Shown piece after piece: positions 28,037 to 46,884 of a DNA stretch of 64,000 nt. The notes beneath the pieces are model-generated. The model was not told where the DNA came from. It made no database searches and saw only the letters and a list, made by a program, of their open reading frames with translations. The position numbers and the translations under genes are program-made. The DNA lies in the NCBI GenBank assembly GCA_030603365.1, contig JAUVXV010000005.1, positions 32,001 through 96,000 of the forward strand, in the 5' to 3' direction. How positions within the stretch are numbered: the stretch's first letter is position 1; each line of letters opens with the position of its first letter. The stretch is from Candidatus Heimdallarchaeota archaeon. Its GTDB lineage: Archaea > Asgardarchaeota > Heimdallarchaeia > Heimdallarchaeales > Heimdallarchaeaceae.

Positions 28037-28207
28037 TTACTTAGCTTCTTTCGCCATTACTGCTGCAGAGAGTTTTCTTCTTAATCTTCTGTTAGAGACT
28101 TCTCTGTTTACTCTTCTGATACTCCAGAAGACTAATCCTATAACTAGACCAACAACACCTGTAGTAAGAAACACACTTATTATTTCTGGTATAAATGTAG
28201 GAGCCAT
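28037..28207 (-). CDS. Unannotated 56-aa single-TM protein with basic tail
   Basis: Manual translation MAPTFIPEIISVFLTTGVVGLVIGLVFWSIRRVNREVSNRRLRRKLSAAVMAKEAK*; AGGTG RBS upstream; below ORF-track cutoff. Confidence 0.65.
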   Translation of the reverse strand: MAPTFIPEIISVFLTTGVVGLVIGLVFWSIRRVNREVSNRRLRRKLSAAVMAKEAK

Positions 28208-28281
28208 TCACTCAACACCTACATGAAGTGATTCTCACACATTTTTAAATGTATGCTTTGTTAGTTTCTGTTCTTCTAATC

Positions 28282-29007
28282 TTAATCTATCAAATGAATA
28301 TTCTTTGATTCCTCAATCTGGATATTGATTATTTCATTGTCTTTAACAAGTACTAGTAATCCTTCATTATTTATTCCATCACAATTGTATTTTTTTAACA
28401 TGTATCTATGCATTTTGCTAAGATTTAACAGGTTTGTATTGTATTCAGAAATTAGTTCGTTGACATGTTCGGATTTTAATTTTTCTAGGTATGCAAAAAG
28501 GGTCTCAGTTAATGATTCTATAAGAATACCCATATTGGAAATACATTTAATTTCTTCTGAAATACTTGTGGCTTTAACTCCCTCCACTTTATTCAGGTCT
28601 TCTTTTTTAATATTGATGTTCAAACCAATTCCAATAAGTAGATGATTTATCTGACTACTATGTATTTCAAGTAAGATACCACCTAATTTCTTGTTGTTTA
28701 GATAGATATCATTTGGCCATTTTATTTTGATGTCTAGTTTGTAAAGTTCTTTGAGTGTTTGTTGAATACTTAAAGCTGTTATGTAATGGATCATTCTCAT
28801 CTGCTTCTGGTTAATACTCTTTTCAAGAGCAAGAACATATGTTCCATAGAATCCACCTTTAGGAGAAACCCACTTAGAATTTTCTCTTCCTTTTCCTTCT
28901 AGTTGCTCATCTGCAATAATTAGAAAAGGTTCAGTGCTCTTTTTACGAAGATGATTTGCAACAATATCCATAGTAGAAGAAATACTATCATATCTAATAA
29001 TTCGCAT
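28282..29007 (-). CDS. birA: Biotin--[acetyl-CoA carboxylase] ligase (no N-terminal HTH)
   Basis: ISSTMD, ADEQLEGKGR..SKWVSPKGG, IKWPNDIY..KKLGGIL, GIGLNI; start 29007 preferred over 29061. Confidence 0.9.
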   Translation of the reverse strand: MRIIRYDSISSTMDIVANHLRKKSTEPFLIIADEQLEGKGRENSKWVSPKGGFYGTYVLALEKSINQKQMRMIHYITALSIQQTLKELYKLDIKIKWPNDIYLNNKKLGGILLEIHSSQINHLLIGIGLNINIKKEDLNKVEGVKATSISEEIKCISNMGILIESLTETLFAYLEKLKSEHVNELISEYNTNLLNLSKMHRYMLKKYNCDGINNEGLLVLVKDNEIINIQIEESKNIHLID

Positions 29008-29136
29008 TTTCTCTCTATTGAATATCACAAGAAACACTTTACACGAGCTGTTAATAGACATTATTACATCTTGAGGTTATAAAATTTATTTACTATACAA
29101 GGAAAATCTATTTTTATTGGAATTGTAATTATTTGT

Positions 29137-44130: not shown

Positions 44131-44888
44131 AAATCGAACAAACAAATATTAATTTCAGAGAAGAAACAATAAATGGAGTACTATATCTTCCTGAAACCAA
44201 AAATCCATCTCCACTAATTCTTCATTTAAACGGAATGCCCGGTCTAGAACCTGAGAAGGAAAGAGAAAGATTTGCACAGGATATGATAGAGAATGGTTTT
44301 GCTTATTATGCCTTCGACTATACAGGAGTCAGGAATAGCACAGGTTTGTTTGAATATTACTATTCTCTAGAGAATATTAACCAAATCCTTTCCTATTTAG
44401 TTCATCATCCGAAAATCGATCCCACTAAAATAGCTCTTTTAGGAGAAAGTTTTGGTGGAGCAATGGCTATATCACACACAGCGAGAGATTCAAGAATCAA
44501 GTGTCTAGCTTTACGTTCTCCAGTTTATGATACTGACAAAGTTACAAAATTGAAGGTTTTTGATGGATTATCTCAATTATGGAAAAGAAGTAAACAAATG
44601 AGGTTTCCAGAAGTAAATTTGAAGAATTGGTTTCAAAGACAATCTTCCCAATATAATCCAGCAAAGCTTATCTCGAGGATTAGTTGCCCAGTTCGAGTTA
44701 TAACAGGAACTAGTGATGAAGTTTTATCTATTGATGAAATTGAGAAATTATATGAAAAACTTCCTTCAGAAATTGATAAAGAAATAAGAATAATAGAAAA
44801 TGCAGATCACAACTTTTCTGATAAAAACCACTTTAAAATTATGAAAGAATATATAATTAATTTCTTCAAAGAGGTTTTAAAAAATTGA
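44127..44888 (+). CDS. Alpha/beta hydrolase, probable thioesterase / chain-release enzyme
   Basis: GESFGG, GTSDEV, ADHNF catalytic triad; ATGA overlap with the megasynthase stop. Confidence 0.8.
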   Translation: MKIEQTNINFREETINGVLYLPETKNPSPLILHLNGMPGLEPEKERERFAQDMIENGFAYYAFDYTGVRNSTGLFEYYYSLENINQILSYLVHHPKIDPTKIALLGESFGGAMAISHTARDSRIKCLALRSPVYDTDKVTKLKVFDGLSQLWKRSKQMRFPEVNLKNWFQRQSSQYNPAKLISRISCPVRVITGTSDEVLSIDEIEKLYEKLPSEIDKEIRIIENADHNFSDKNHFKIMKEYIINFFKEVLKN

Positions 44889-45365
44889 TTAAGGTTTAAT
44901 AACAAGTAGTAATTGGTCTTGTTCAACACTATCATTTTCTTTTATTGCTATTTTACGTATTTTTCCATTGTTTGGTGAGAAGATTCTGTTTCGCATCTTC
45001 ATAGCTTCAAGAATTAGAAGTTCTTCATCTTTTGAGACTTTTTGACCTTCTTTTACAAATATTTTTGTTATTTTTCCAGGTATAGGTGCAGAAATCTTAA
45101 CCTCTCGTTTTGAGGTTTTACTTGATTTTCTACCTACTACAGGAATATATGGTTTAATTGTGAATTGAGTTTTTTCTCCATCTACGATGAAATCTTCATT
45201 TGAAATTTCAATAGTAAAAGTATAACCATCGACATCAACTTTGTACATAGAGTTTATCCCTTGTTTTATATCAGCTGTAAAAAGCTCTCCATCTATACTG
45301 ATTTCACCATTTGGTAATACTTCTACAATATATTCTCTATCCCTAAACTTCACTTTCTTCTTCAT
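44889..45365 (-). CDS. Biotin carboxyl carrier protein
   Basis: APIPGKI, LEAMKMRN biotinylation motif; AAGGTG RBS before ATG 45365. Confidence 0.92.
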   Translation of the reverse strand: MKKKVKFRDREYIVEVLPNGEISIDGELFTADIKQGINSMYKVDVDGYTFTIEISNEDFIVDGEKTQFTIKPYIPVVGRKSSKTSKREVKISAPIPGKITKIFVKEGQKVSKDEELLILEAMKMRNRIFSPNNGKIRKIAIKENDSVEQDQLLLVIKP

Positions 45366-45381
45366 AACAGATGACACCTTC

Positions 45382-46884
45382 TCAAAGATAGCCTTGTTGT
45401 TGTTCTAACTTGCTTTGTTCTCGCCATCTATTATAATCTTCCTTTCTTTCCTGAATCTTTGAAATATCATATTCCTGTTTTTCTTTAAGTAATGAATGTG
45501 TTTTAAGTAAAGCTACCAGTTTTAGTTTCTCATAATGATCAAGTATCTGATTGATCTTATTTCTTTCCAGAAAATCAGTTGTAATTCTTCTATTTTGGAA
45601 TTCTGGAGTTTCAATAATTGCTTTGTGAAGTGAAATGTTGGTAGCTAATCCTGAAATGGCAAGTTCATTCAATGCTAAGCGTGATTTTTGTATAGCATCT
45701 TCTCTATTTTCCCCCCTAACAATTAACTTACCTATAAGAGAATCATACTGATTTGGAAGTTCGTAATTTGGATAAATAAAAGTATCAAATCGTACCTCAT
45801 TTCCACCAGGAACATTCAAACTAGTTATTTTTCCTGATTGTGGGTAAAATGCCTTTAAAGGATCTTCTGCATTGATTCTGAATTCGAATGCATGTCCAGA
45901 ATATCTTATGTCCTTTTGAGTATAAGCTAATCTTTCATTATTAGCAATTTTCAGCTGTTGAACAACAATATCAATACCTGTTACCATCTCTGTTACTGGA
46001 TGTTCAACTTGAATTCTAGGATTAATTTCATTGAAGAATAATTTATTGTTTTTCCAGAGAAATTCAGCAGTTCCTGCATTTCTATATTCAAGATTTTTGG
46101 CTAAATCACATATTTTTTCTCCAAGACTATTTCTCCTTCTTGCTGAAATAAATGAAGGGGCTTCTTCGATTATTTTTTGGTAAGATCTTTGGATTGAACA
46201 TTCTCTATCACCAATGTGGATCACATTGCCAAAATTATCAGCAATAAACTGAATTTCAACATGTCTGGGTGAAGGAATATATTTCTCAATGAAGACTTCT
46301 TTACTCCCAAAGAATTTGTCAGCTATGGTCTGACAACCCATTAAACTTATTTCAAGAGCTTCAGGATTTTCAACAATTTCCATTCCTCTTCCTCCACCCC
46401 CAAAAACTGCTTTGATAATTATTGGATAACCAATTTCGTTAGCAATATTTTCAGCTTCAGCTGTCGTATTGATATAACCGGAGGAACCAGGAACAGTTTG
46501 AATTCCTACTTCTTTGGCCATTTTTTTAGCTTCTATTTTATTCCCCAATTTATGCAAAATAGAAGGAGAAGGACCTATGAAAATAATACCATTTTTTTCG
46601 ACTTCCTCTGCAAAAATAGCACTTTCACTTAGAAAACCATATCCAGGATGAATTGCATCTGAATTTGATTTAATAGCAATTTGTACGATCTTTTCAACGT
46701 TAAGGTATGTTTCCTGAACAGAACCATTACCTAAACAAAATGCCTCATCTGCCATCCTTACGTGAAGAGAAGAAGAATCAATTTCAGAAAAAATAACTAC
46801 AGTTTTGATATTAAGAAGTCGACAAGCTCTTATGATCCTAATAGCAATTTCTCCACGGTTAGCTATAAGGACAGTACTGAGCAT
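45382..46884 (-). CDS. Biotin carboxylase, copy 2, with epsilon-like C-terminal tail
   Basis: VLIANRGEIA, HPGYGFLSE, GGGGRGM, EINPRIQVEHP; directly upstream of BCCP. Confidence 0.92.
   Translation of the reverse strand: MLSTVLIANRGEIAIRIIRACRLLNIKTVVIFSEIDSSSLHVRMADEAFCLGNGSVQETYLNVEKIVQIAIKSNSDAIHPGYGFLSESAIFAEEVEKNGIIFIGPSPSILHKLGNKIEAKKMAKEVGIQTVPGSSGYINTTAEAENIANEIGYPIIIKAVFGGGGRGMEIVENPEALEISLMGCQTIADKFFGSKEVFIEKYIPSPRHVEIQFIADNFGNVIHIGDRECSIQRSYQKIIEEAPSFISARRRNSLGEKICDLAKNLEYRNAGTAEFLWKNNKLFFNEINPRIQVEHPVTEMVTGIDIVVQQLKIANNERLAYTQKDIRYSGHAFEFRINAEDPLKAFYPQSGKITSLNVPGGNEVRFDTFIYPNYELPNQYDSLIGKLIVRGENREDAIQKSRLALNELAISGLATNISLHKAIIETPEFQNRRITTDFLERNKINQILDHYEKLKLVALLKTHSLLKEKQEYDISKIQERKEDYNRWREQSKLEQQQGYL

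What the first reader, a model, noticed from the sequence alone, without database searches (positions are those of the whole stretch)
28037..46884. Complete ACP-dependent fatty-acid/polyketide synthesis island in an apparently Asgard archaeal genome
Seen: birA, 2 carboxyltransferases, 2 biotin carboxylases, a BCCP, a ~3360-aa type I synthase and an overlapping hydrolase in ~19 kb. These cover extender supply, biotinylation, carrier priming, elongation, full reduction and release. The flanks carry archaeal/Asgard-type genes (NreA, Mtd, Arf and Rag-like GTPases), and the island has similar AT-rich composition and archaeal AGGTGA RBSs. Established: archaea build isoprenoid ether lipids and generally lack ACP-dependent FAS and type I PKS. 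Inference: this organism may make long acyl chains or a polyketide lipid via an ameliorated, probably bacterially derived system, which bears on the lipid divide in eukaryogenesis.
Basis: partly seen in the sequence, partly recalled or inferred. Interest (0 to 1): 0.95.

Follow-up and report, generated by a model that had tools for sequence, protein, structure and literature searches.

The report
Asgard archaeal fatty-acid megasynthase operon
A Heimdall-type Asgard archaeon carries, as a conserved native operon, a complete carrier-protein-based machine for building fatty acyl chains together with its own malonyl-CoA supply, something archaea are generally said to lack; what it makes has not been measured.

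Summary
Window 28.3-46.9 kb holds a biotin ligase, two carboxyltransferases, two biotin carboxylases, one BCCP, a 3361/3371-aa megasynthase and a coupled alpha/beta hydrolase.

- **Architecture:** pseudoER-ER(FabK-like)-KS-AT-KS2-ACPx2-KR-DH-PPTase, with all catalytic residues intact.
- **Host:** the host is archaeal. The contig is 216 kb with even GC, and Nre, Mtd, Arf and RagA lie in the flanks. The same CT-synthase-hydrolase-BCCP-BC-ligase order recurs in 58 of 301 Asgard genomes, including closed chromosomes. It is near-universal in five Heimdallarchaeia families.
- **Not a recent island:** the synthase holds the genome's only ACP and PPTase domains, and the island holds its only biotin-carboxylase genes.
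- **ER replacement:** ER-less relatives carry a FabI gene directly downstream.
- **Family:** it belongs to an uncharacterised PfaA-like family also present in bacteria (Desulfobacterota, Bradymonadales, Saprospiraceae). That family appears to match the 'Type R/S' secondary lipid synthases of Shulse & Allen 2011.
- **Thr-ACP:** nearly all ACPs in the family have Thr where Ser normally carries phosphopantetheine.
- **Origin:** bacterial origin is compatible with the trees but unresolved (AU p = 0.07).
- **Prior reports:** a Heimdall PKS was noted in passing in 2020. This scan has also found the family in other genomes.
- **Untested:** the product and its expression.

The parts
28282..29061 (-). 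Biotin-protein ligase (BirA catalytic core, no repressor domain)
   Evidence: PF03099 E 8e-20; TIGR00121 137.5 bits, above its 83.1 cut-off. It is the only copy in the genome and lies next to the cluster in relatives.
29137..30717 (+). Carboxyltransferase CT1 (12S/PccB-type acyl-CoA carboxylase beta subunit), the extra paralogue
   Evidence: PF01039 E 1e-183. 81% identical to CT2. Substrate not determined.
30728..32239 (-). Biotin carboxylase BC1, the extra paralogue
   Evidence: Biotin_carb_N, CPSase_L_D2 and Biotin_carb_C. About 70% identical to BC2.
32421..34034 (+). Carboxyltransferase CT2, the copy conserved directly upstream of the synthase in every relative examined
   Evidence: PF01039 E 5e-187. 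Synteny in L002-L022 and L024.
34045..44130 (+). Megasynthase (ORF opens at 34015; the likely start is 34045, behind AGGTGA). Domain order: pseudoER-ER-KS1-AT-KS2-ACP-ACP-KR-DH-PPTase
34015..35004 (+). N-terminal degenerate FabK/NMO-like domain (KGFEAGGK, no His)
   Evidence: PF03060 at 27.7 bits, just under the 28-bit cut-off. TIGR03151 FabK matches in 2 stretches over residues 1-700. No fold was computed.
35026..35904 (+). FMN-type enoyl reductase domain (FabK-like, EGSECGGH)
   Evidence: PF03060 E 7e-23. PDB FabK 7l00 E 7.5e-16. TIGR03151 117.9 bits.
36178..37593 (+). KS1, Cys-His-His
   Evidence: PF00109/PF02801. Best curated family is TIGR02813 PfaA, 634 bits for the KS-AT stretch. The triad is invariant in 101 family members.
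37678..38595 (+). Acyltransferase (GHSLGE, xAFH: malonyl-type motifs)
   Evidence: PF00698 E 2e-51. TIGR00128 fabD 241 bits. Ser, His and Gln are invariant.
38896..40404 (+). KS2, a divergent FabF-like ketosynthase that keeps Cys-His-His (so not a chain-length factor)
   Evidence: PDB FabF 4ddo E 7e-26. Cys and both His are invariant in 101 members.
40483..40683 (+). ACP1, with Thr2186 (ACT at 40570) at the phosphopantetheine site
   Evidence: PF00550. Motif LGIDTVKQAEI.
40765..40968 (+). ACP2, with Thr2281 (ACT at 40855) at the phosphopantetheine site
   Evidence: PF00550 E 1e-11. The Thr aligns with the DS serine of solved ACPs.
41302..42504 (+). Ketoreductase with its N-terminal structural half (GGGRG; Ser, Tyr, Asn)
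   Evidence: PF08659 E 5e-27. Ser, Tyr and Asn are invariant.
42586..43353 (+). PKS-type dehydratase (double hotdog; His, Pro, Glu, Gln)
   Evidence: PF21089 and PF14765. His is invariant. The FabA model scores only E 0.083.
43510..44034 (+). Sfp-type phosphopantetheinyl transferase domain, the only one in the genome
   Evidence: PF01648 E 2e-17; PF22624 weak; TIGR00556. One PF01648 locus in each of five genomes, always inside the synthase.
44127..44888 (+). Alpha/beta hydrolase, translationally coupled (ATGA overlap). Candidate releasing thioesterase.
   Evidence: PF12146 and PF00326. GESFG, Asp and His present. Nearest solved proteins are generic esterases. The position after the synthase is conserved in clades A and B.
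44889..45377 (-). Biotin carboxyl carrier protein (EAMKM)
   Evidence: PF00364 E 5e-19. Motif seen. Only copy in the genome.
45382..46884 (-). Biotin carboxylase BC2, the copy conserved next to the BCCP gene in relatives
   Evidence: NF006367 597.2 bits, at its cut-off. Synteny.

Best explanation
This is a native, functional operon for de novo, ACP-dependent synthesis of fully reduced fatty acyl chains. The steps below are inferred from domain content unless marked otherwise.

1. The biotin ligase biotinylates the single BCCP.
2. BC, BCCP and CT form an archaeal-type acyl-CoA carboxylase that makes malonyl-CoA.
3. The fused PPTase primes the two ACP domains of the megasynthase, probably on Thr.
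4. The AT loads malonyl units.
5. KS1 and KS2, both catalytic, condense them iteratively.
6. KR, DH and the FabK-type ER reduce each beta-keto group to a methylene.
7. The coupled alpha/beta hydrolase releases the chain as a free acid.

Shown here:
- gene and domain content;
- intact catalytic residues;
- conserved synteny;
- the exclusive pairing of ACP, PPTase and carboxylase genes;
- lineage-wide retention;
- replacement of the ER domain by a FabI gene in ER-less relatives.

Inferred:
- all enzyme activities;
- malonyl specificity;
- the hydrolase's role in release;
- Thr as the attachment residue;
- chain length and fate of the product.

A plausible fate, weakly supported, is conversion by DegV/Dak2 (fatty-acid-kinase-like) proteins to acyl-phosphate and transfer by PlsY to glycerol phosphate.
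For: 1. **Domains and accessory genes.**
2. **Conserved catalytic residues.** The Cys-His-His triads of both KSs, AT Ser/His, KR Ser/Tyr/Asn and DH His are invariant in 101 family members.
3. **Synteny.** The order CT-synthase-hydrolase-BCCP-BC-ligase is kept from genus to class level. It is also kept in a 4.36-Mb Lokiarchaeota contig beside the SBDS, exosome, L37ae and Pcc1 genes.
4. **Distribution.** Present in 57/61 relatives and 58/301 genomes of the phylum, with f1 25/26, f3 9/9 and f6 9/9.
5. **Exclusive partners.** The only PP-binding and ACPS domains in five genomes lie inside the synthase. The only CT, BC, BCCP and ligase genes of this genome lie in the island.
6. **ER replacement.** ER-less clade C synthases have a FabI-type enoyl reductase gene directly downstream and a FabH-like gene upstream. 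Enoyl reduction is therefore kept by a non-orthologous replacement.
7. **Gene overlaps.** In the mechanical ORF call the CT2 gene overlaps the synthase frame; from the likely start at 34045 the synthase begins 11 nt after the CT2 stop. The synthase stop overlaps the hydrolase start.
8. **Downstream route.** There are 3 PlsY genes, and one is adjacent to the cluster in the closed relatives G030/G027. There are 14 DegV genes, and a PlsY-DegV-Dak2 cluster exists in G056.
Against: - There is no biochemical, lipid or transcript evidence.
- Both ACPs lack the canonical Ser. No natural Thr-linked phosphopantetheine was found in the literature searched.
- The hydrolase resembles generic esterases, not known thioesterases.
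- The carboxyltransferases score highest on a methylmalonyl-CoA decarboxylase subfamily model, below its cut-off, so the substrate is open.
- PlsX and PlsC were not found in this genome.
- CarS and a G1P-dehydrogenase-like gene are present, so archaeal-type lipids are not excluded.
- The only cultured Asgard archaeon whose lipids I know of (MK-D1, a Lokiarchaeon) is reported with isoprenoid lipids. This is from my own knowledge of PMC7015854 and was not re-read here.
Confidence: 0.7

Rival explanations
1. The synthase is a secondary-metabolite or 'secondary lipid' synthase. It would make a specialised product, such as a very-long-chain or partly unsaturated acyl chain, a hydrocarbon precursor, or an alkyl chain for an unusual lipid. 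Ordinary membrane fatty acids would not be its product.
For: - The closest curated family is PfaA of PUFA synthases (TIGR02813). The closest described architecture is the uncharacterised Type R/S secondary lipid synthases.
- It has tandem ACPs and two active KSs, which is unlike housekeeping FASs.
- BGC surveys class such genes as PKS.
- CarS, UbiA-type prenyltransferases and a G1PDH-like gene are retained.
Against: - There are no tailoring, export or regulatory genes typical of secondary-metabolite clusters. The conserved partners are only the carboxylase, the ligase and the hydrolase.
- Retention is near-universal across whole families.
- A complete KR-DH-ER set is kept even through replacement by FabI.
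- There is no FabA-type isomerising dehydratase for cis double bonds.
- PlsY and the DegV expansion point to handling of ordinary fatty acids.
Confidence: 0.22
2. The cluster is a bacterial contaminant or a mis-binned contig, or a decaying relic whose Thr-ACPs cannot be primed.
For: - The genome is a MAG-like assembly, 89% complete with 3.4% contamination.
- Ser-to-Thr at the attachment site would be expected to inactivate a canonical ACP.
Against: - The contig is 216 kb with uniform GC, and the Nre, Mtd, Arf and RagA genes lie around the cluster.
- The same operon occurs in closed one-contig Asgard genomes and beside archaeal ribosomal and exosome genes.
- No frame disruptions are present, and all catalytic residues are invariant.
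- Thr is the rule in about 100 homologues, including cultured bacteria.
- The fused PPTase is retained and is the only one in each genome.
Confidence: 0.03
3. The carboxylase genes serve another pathway, such as propionyl-CoA/methylmalonyl-CoA metabolism, a decarboxylase sodium pump or CO2 fixation. On this view they sit next to the synthase only by chance.
For: - The best NCBIfam model for both CTs is methylmalonyl-CoA decarboxylase alpha, at 751-753 bits and below the 998.8 cut-off.
- From my own knowledge, archaeal acyl-CoA carboxylases are often bifunctional.
- Bacterial homologues of the synthase lack adjacent carboxylase genes.
Against: - A CT gene lies immediately upstream of the synthase in every Asgard locus examined, from genus to class level and in Lokiarchaeota. 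BC, BCCP and the ligase travel with it.
- These are the only biotin-enzyme genes in the genome.
- Biotin carboxylase subunits are present, which fits a carboxylase and not a decarboxylase pump.
- A dual role is not excluded.
Confidence: 0.05

Closest known systems
'Type R' and 'Type S' secondary lipid synthase clusters (Shulse & Allen 2011, PMC3098273)
   Same: Type R is described as one pfaA homologue, KS-MAT-'CLF'-ACP(3-6)-KR, with a PPTase. In Ca. Koribacter versatilis an acetyl-CoA carboxylase gene lies in the cluster. Type S (Desulfobacterium autotrophicum) was proposed as that organism's core FAS because fabA and fabZ are missing. The KS-AT-KS2-ACPn-KR order matches. I found the same architecture, with Thr-ACPs, in Desulfobacteraceae, Desulfomonile, Bradymonadales and Saprospiraceae proteins.
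   Different: Here the FabK-like ER pair, the DH and the PPTase are fused into one chain. The 'CLF' keeps its catalytic Cys-His-His. The host is archaeal, and a full carboxylase plus biotin ligase set is in the operon. I did not align the actual Type R/S sequences, so the equivalence rests on architecture and host taxonomy. The products are unknown in every case.
PfaA / bacterial PUFA synthase (PfaABCDE; NCBIfam TIGR02813)
   Same: It is the best curated match for the KS-AT stretch (634 bits) and the KR-DH stretch (251 bits). Shared features are tandem ACPs, an FMN-type enoyl reductase and a dedicated PPTase.
   Different: Scores are below the family cut-off of 1010. There is no KS-CLF subunit, no FabA-type dehydratase/isomerase pair and no PfaB. 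The ER region matched only the FabK model, and no PfaD model reached E 1e-5. The ACPs have Thr, not Ser. All activities sit on one polypeptide.
Fungal and Corynebacterium/Mycobacterium-type type I fatty acid synthases
   Same: Both are single or double giant chains with an FMN-dependent TIM-barrel enoyl reductase and an integrated PPTase. Both work as a self-contained primary FAS (own knowledge).
   Different: Domain order differs. The KS, AT and DH domains here belong to PKS/PfaA-type families. No fungal-FAS Pfam domain was matched (FAS_N E 0.058). This is a functional analogy, not membership.
ACP-independent archaeal fatty acid synthase (ketothiolase/DUF35 complex; bioRxiv 10.1101/2024.07.05.601840)
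   Same: It is a route to de novo fatty acids in Archaea, and it is said to be frequent in Asgard genomes.
   Different: That system is CoA-based, built of separate proteins and without ACP or PPTase. The operon here is ACP-dependent and malonyl-CoA-driven. [quoted passage not shown]
Archaeal-type acyl-CoA carboxylase (AccC / AccB / PccB-type 12S carboxyltransferase)
   Same: It has three separate subunits, with a single roughly 525-aa carboxyltransferase of the PF01039 family.
   Different: Here it is genetically tied to a megasynthase. The BC and CT genes are duplicated in this genome; whether other members of the genus share the duplication was not examined. Substrate specificity was not tested.

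Membership tests
Pfa-type PUFA synthase | PfaA-like KS-MAT-ACPn-KR(-DH) core | tested here: inconclusive
   TIGR02813 is the top model for both halves (634 and 251 bits), but both are under the 1010-bit cut-off. An extra KS lies between the AT and the ACPs.
Pfa-type PUFA synthase | KS-CLF pair in which the second KS-like domain lacks the active Cys | tested here: not met
   KS2 has Cys-His-His, invariant in 101 members. Its nearest solved proteins are FabF.
Pfa-type PUFA synthase | Tandem FabA-type dehydratase/isomerase domains (PfaC) | tested here: not met
   Only one PKS-type DH is present (PF21089, PF14765). FabA scores E 0.083.
Pfa-type PUFA synthase | Tandem ACP domains carrying Ser-linked phosphopantetheine | tested here: not met
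   Two ACPs are present, but both have Thr at the site, aligned to the DS serine of solved ACPs. The modification itself cannot be tested with these tools.
Type R/S secondary lipid synthase (Shulse & Allen 2011) | pfaA homologue with KS-MAT-'CLF'-ACP(3-6)-KR plus a PPTase | tested here: inconclusive
   The order KS1-AT-KS2-ACP2-KR-DH-PPT fits the published description. The published members' sequences were not compared.
Fully reducing iterative type I FAS (functional class) | KS, AT, ACP, KR, DH and ER all present with catalytic residues | tested here: met
   The ER is replaced by a FabI gene in ER-less relatives.
Fully reducing iterative type I FAS (functional class) | Makes saturated fatty acids from malonyl-CoA | not testable with these tools
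   Needs an enzyme assay or lipidomics.
Fungal / CMN type I FAS | Characteristic domain order and fungal-FAS-specific domains (MPT, FAS_N, etc.) | tested here: not met
   No such Pfam domain reached significance. The KS-AT stretch is nearest to PKS/PfaA.
Biotin-dependent acyl-CoA carboxylase | BC, BCCP with a biotinyl-Lys motif, CT and a cognate biotin ligase | tested here: met
   (EAMKM). Acetyl-CoA specificity was not tested.
Sfp-type PPTase | Two-lobed ACPS fold with the GxD and W/FxxKE motifs | tested here: met
   PF01648 63.5 bits; PF22624 N-lobe weak. GIDIE and WTIKEA are present in the sequence. Acceptor residue not testable.

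The most novel reading that the evidence does not exclude
A large part of Heimdallarchaeia, and some Lokiarchaeia, would use this self-priming megasynthase as their primary fatty acid synthase. The phosphopantetheine arm would be attached to threonine, a linkage I could not find described. 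The acids would feed through DegV/Dak2-type kinases and PlsY into glycerolipids. These relatives of the eukaryotic ancestor would then build fatty-acyl (bacterial/eukaryote-like or mixed) membranes. In line with this, the canonical GGGP synthase was not detected in this genome or in a closed relative.
Probability: 0.3. Interest if true: 0.95.

Novelty: new variant of a known kind. Interest (0 to 1): 0.8.

Why it matters
Textbook accounts, and a 2024 preprint (10.1101/2024.07.05.601840), say archaea lack ACP, ACP synthase and type I/II FAS. The change from isoprenoid-ether to fatty-acyl-ester membranes is a central open problem of eukaryogenesis.

This work shows that a complete, intact, ACP-dependent FAS-like system with its own malonyl-CoA supply is a conserved native trait of several Heimdallarchaeia families. 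That turns 'could Asgard archaea make fatty acids?' into a directly testable question with a defined gene target.

The family-wide Thr at the carrier site also offers a possible new form of a textbook cofactor attachment, testable by mass spectrometry.

Three limits apply. One family of the same class lacks the system in all 19 genomes searched. No link to eukaryotic FAS genes was found. The product is unknown.

Tried and rejected
- **Sequencing runs.** No RNA holder was listed. Only cold-seep and other metagenome DNA runs with small shares were found, so nothing can be said about expression.
- **Laid reads.** Only 200-800-bp Logan contigs at low depth were laid. One 530-bp piece (X2, record 9) bridges 27842-28371 across the left edge. 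Nothing useful covers the right edge. Continuity therefore rests on the 216-kb contig and on synteny in relatives.
- **Representative search with the KS-AT stretch.** The best 150 were giant modular PKSs ranked by summed module scores. This was useless for sizing the family, and I used six of them only as an outgroup.
- **Lujinxingia protein P0110.** No record was found, so there is no gene context for it.
- **Literature searches.** I searched for the GIDTVKQ motif, Thr-linked phosphopantetheinylation and the Desulfobacula PKS. Nothing relevant was found.
- **In-frame TGAs in stand-alone KS2-like genes of relatives.** I suspected selenocysteine, but they are ordinary terminal stop codons.
- **Midpoint-rooted FastTree.** It placed the root at the long Desulfobacteraceae branch. 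Outgroup rooting and a site-heterogeneous model gave the same order, but the program warns that long branches meet, so I do not rely on the root.
- **Complex prediction of PPTase with ACP.** Not run. An enzyme with its own carrier is a poor case for that test.

Full report
**1. What is there**

- a BirA-type biotin-protein ligase, 28282-29061(-);
- two 12S/PccB-type carboxyltransferases, 29137-30717(+) and 32421-34034(+), which are 81% identical to each other;
- two biotin carboxylases, 30728-32239(-) and 45382-46884(-), about 70% identical;
- one BCCP with the EAMKM motif, 44889-45377(-);
- a 3371-aa open frame, 34015-44130(+);
- an alpha/beta hydrolase, 44127-44888(+), whose ATG overlaps the synthase stop codon.

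The real start of the synthase is probably the ATG at 34045. It lies 6 nt behind AGGTGA and 11 nt after the CT2 stop codon.

**2. Anatomy of the synthase**

In P0001 numbering the domains are as follows.

- **Residues 1-330:** a degenerate FabK/NMO-like domain. It is sub-threshold in Pfam, but the FabK model matches in two stretches.
- **Residues 338-630:** a FabK-like FMN enoyl reductase.
- **Residues 722-1193:** KS1.
- **Residues 1222-1527:** an AT with malonyl-type motifs.
- **Residues about 1628-2130:** a second, FabF-like KS.
- **Residues 2157-2223 and 2251-2318:** two ACPs.
- **After the ACPs:** a KR with its structural half, then a PKS-type DH.
- **C-terminus:** an Sfp-type PPTase.

The best curated family for the KS-AT and KR-DH parts is PfaA of PUFA synthases, below its cut-off.

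In an alignment of 101 family members several residues are invariant: both KS Cys-His-His triads, AT Ser/His, KR Ser/Tyr/Asn and DH His. KS2 is therefore not a chain-length factor.

**3. The host is an Asgard archaeon and the operon is native**

- The window lies at 32-96 kb of a 216-kb contig. GC is even across all 17 contigs.
- The Nre, Mtd, Gtr1/RagA and Arf genes flank the cluster.
- Named homologues are Heimdallarchaeota/Heimdallarchaeaceae (74-58% identity), then Promethearchaeota, Lokiarchaeum, Lokiarchaeota, Hodarchaeota and Kariarchaeaceae.
- Homologues occur in 57 of 61 sampled relatives, including two one-contig genomes of the same family.
- They occur in 58 of 301 Asgard genomes of at least 80% completeness.

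| Family code | Genomes with a match |
|---|---|
| f1 | 25/26 |
| f2 | 1/1 |
| f3 | 9/9 |
| f4 | 2/3 |
| f6 | 9/9 |
| f5 (same class) | 0/19 |
| f14 | 8/92 |
| f25 | 3/9 |
| all other families | none found |

The gene order CT-synthase-hydrolase-BCCP-BC-ligase is kept from genus to class level. It is also kept in a 4.36-Mb Lokiarchaeota contig, where it sits beside the SBDS, exosome, L37ae and Pcc1 genes. This rules out contamination. It also shows a long-held operon, not a recent island.

**4. Evidence that the parts work together**

- In five genomes spanning the class, the only PP-binding domains and the only PPTase domain are those of the synthase.
- In this genome the only CT, BC, BCCP and biotin-ligase genes are those of the island.
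- Bacterial homologues (Desulfobacula, Desulfomonile) do not have carboxylase genes next to the synthase. The operon form is therefore specific to the archaeal hosts. Carboxylase genes elsewhere in their genomes were not searched for.
- In the ER-less clade (f3, Kariarchaeaceae-like) a FabI-type enoyl reductase gene lies directly downstream and a FabH-like gene upstream. Keeping enoyl reduction through a non-orthologous replacement argues for a fully reducing, FAS-like chemistry.

**5. Threonine at the carrier site**

Both ACPs read LGIDT(V/I)KQAEI. The Thr aligns with the phosphopantetheinyl-Ser of solved ACPs.

The same holds for nearly every ACP of about 120 homologues, including cultured bacteria (Desulfobacula toluolica, Desulfospira joergensenii, Desulforegula conservatrix, Lujinxingia). 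Only a few domains have Ser: some Heimdallarchaeum-like proteins, and all four motif-bearing ACPs of P0083.

Given the intact enzyme, the dedicated PPTase, and Ser/Thr interchange between orthologous domains, a Thr-linked arm is the likeliest reading. It is unproven. I found no paper on it.

**6. Family and origin**

The full architecture, including the pseudoER-ER pair and the PPTase, is shared with Desulfomonile-group proteins. Variants are:

- Desulfobacteraceae lack the PPTase;
- Bradymonadales place the ACPs before KS2;
- a Saprospiraceae group lacks both the ER and the PPTase.

Shulse & Allen (PMC3098273) described the following, all with unknown products:

- 'Type R', KS-MAT-CLF-ACP3-6-KR plus a PPTase, in Acidobacteria, Chloroflexi and Elusimicrobia, with one cluster holding an ACC gene;
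- 'Type S' in Desulfobacterium autotrophicum, proposed as that organism's core FAS.

I take these as the closest described systems, but I did not compare their sequences.

Three trees were built:

- a five-domain concatenate with FastTree;
- a KS-AT tree with modular-PKS outgroups;
- a 45-row IQ-TREE run under LG+C20.

All give the order outgroup | Desulfobacteraceae | Asgard clade A (Heimdallarchaeaceae plus Loki-type) | Asgard clade B | Asgard clade C plus the remaining bacteria.

This fits a bacterial source followed by spread inside Asgard, with later exchange. However, long branches meet at the root, and a single Asgard clade is not rejected (p-AU 0.07). Clade A joins Heimdallarchaeaceae with Loki-type sequences, against the species taxonomy, so transfer within Asgard is likely.

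**7. Fate of the product (inference)**

Lipid-related genes were searched in this genome and four relatives.

| Gene family | Result |
|---|---|
| PlsY | 3 genes here; one lies next to the cluster in the two closed Heimdallarchaeum-like genomes |
| PlsX | not found |
| PlsC | not found in this genome; 3 found in G036 |
| DegV (FakB-like fatty-acid binders) | 14 copies here, 9-13 in three relatives, 2 in a fourth |
| Dak2 | present; a PlsY-DegV-Dak2 cluster exists in G056 |
| CarS | present |
| UbiA-type prenyltransferases | present |
| G1P-dehydrogenase-like gene | present |
| PcrB-type GGGP synthase | not detected with two models in this genome or in a closed relative |

A route synthase -> hydrolase -> free acid -> acyl-phosphate -> PlsY is therefore plausible. 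It rests only on gene content.

**8. Prior knowledge**

- BGC surveys list PKSs in Asgardarchaeota without analysis.
- Major Asgard genome papers that I checked do not mention it.
- Several papers hypothesise mixed membranes from ester-lipid genes.
- Earlier notes of this scan report the same family and the Thr-ACPs in other genomes. I re-tested those points here.

**9. Verdict**

It is a conserved operon, not an island. It belongs to an uncharacterised, PfaA-related 'Type R/S-like' family shared with bacteria. Its origin is unresolved, and its function is inferred only. It is a new variant of a known kind, of high interest because it makes archaeal ACP-dependent fatty-acid synthesis and Thr-linked phosphopantetheine directly testable.

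Noticed in passing
G000 genome-wide (e.g. C4:95823-98849, C15:435898-441302, C2:94561-102413); G056:C6:63849-66403: The DegV (FakB-like fatty-acid-binding) family is strongly expanded: 14 copies in this genome, 9-13 in three relatives and 2 in G036. In G056 a PlsY, a DegV and a Dak2 gene lie side by side. In this genome three DegV genes lie next to a CarS gene.
   Followed up: partly
G000, G030 (closed), G056 versus family f5: A PcrB-type GGGP synthase was not detected with PF01884 or TIGR01768 in this genome, in a closed relative or in f6 genomes. It was found in 6/7 genomes of f5, the family without the synthase, and in 4/4 of genus g7, which has both. CarS is present in 58/61. A divergent enzyme is not excluded.
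   Followed up: partly
L014:3925-4761(-), L018:14973-15785(+), L014:18398-19348(-), L018:278-1222(-): ER-less megasynthases of family f3 are followed by a FabI-type enoyl reductase gene and preceded by a FabH-like gene.
   Followed up: yes
L011:4168-4896(+) and L012:2776-3504(+): In L011 (closed genome G030), a PlsY (G3P acyltransferase family) gene lies directly beside the ligase-CT-synthase cluster. In L012 (G027) an ORF of the same length (242 aa) occupies the same position but was not scanned.
   Followed up: partly
window 29137-32239 versus 32421-34034 and 45382-46884: This genome has an extra convergent CT/BC pair (81% and about 70% identical to the conserved copies) but only one BCCP. 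Relatives outside the genus show one CT and one BC.
   Followed up: partly
window 56093-59572: A TnpB/IS605 OrfB-like gene (56093-57343) sits next to an aldehyde:ferredoxin oxidoreductase gene. GC rises here to 0.37-0.40, against about 0.33 elsewhere.
   Followed up: no
window 24837-26339, 51387-53285, 54238-55878: Three NosD/right-handed beta-helix proteins lie around the cluster. A similar gene sits beside the cluster in G025.
   Followed up: no
G025:C1:136562-138181, G029:C197, G028:C12, G036:C8:519514-520914: Stand-alone genes of about 500-590 aa related to the KS2 domain exist in several relatives. No hit above threshold to this region was found elsewhere in this genome. The TGAs flagged inside the matches are their ordinary stop codons.
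   Followed up: yes
L023:5366-6262(-): In Desulfobacula toluolica a PlsC-type acyltransferase gene lies about 1.7 kb upstream of the homologous megasynthase, with a sigma-54 activator gene between them.
   Followed up: no
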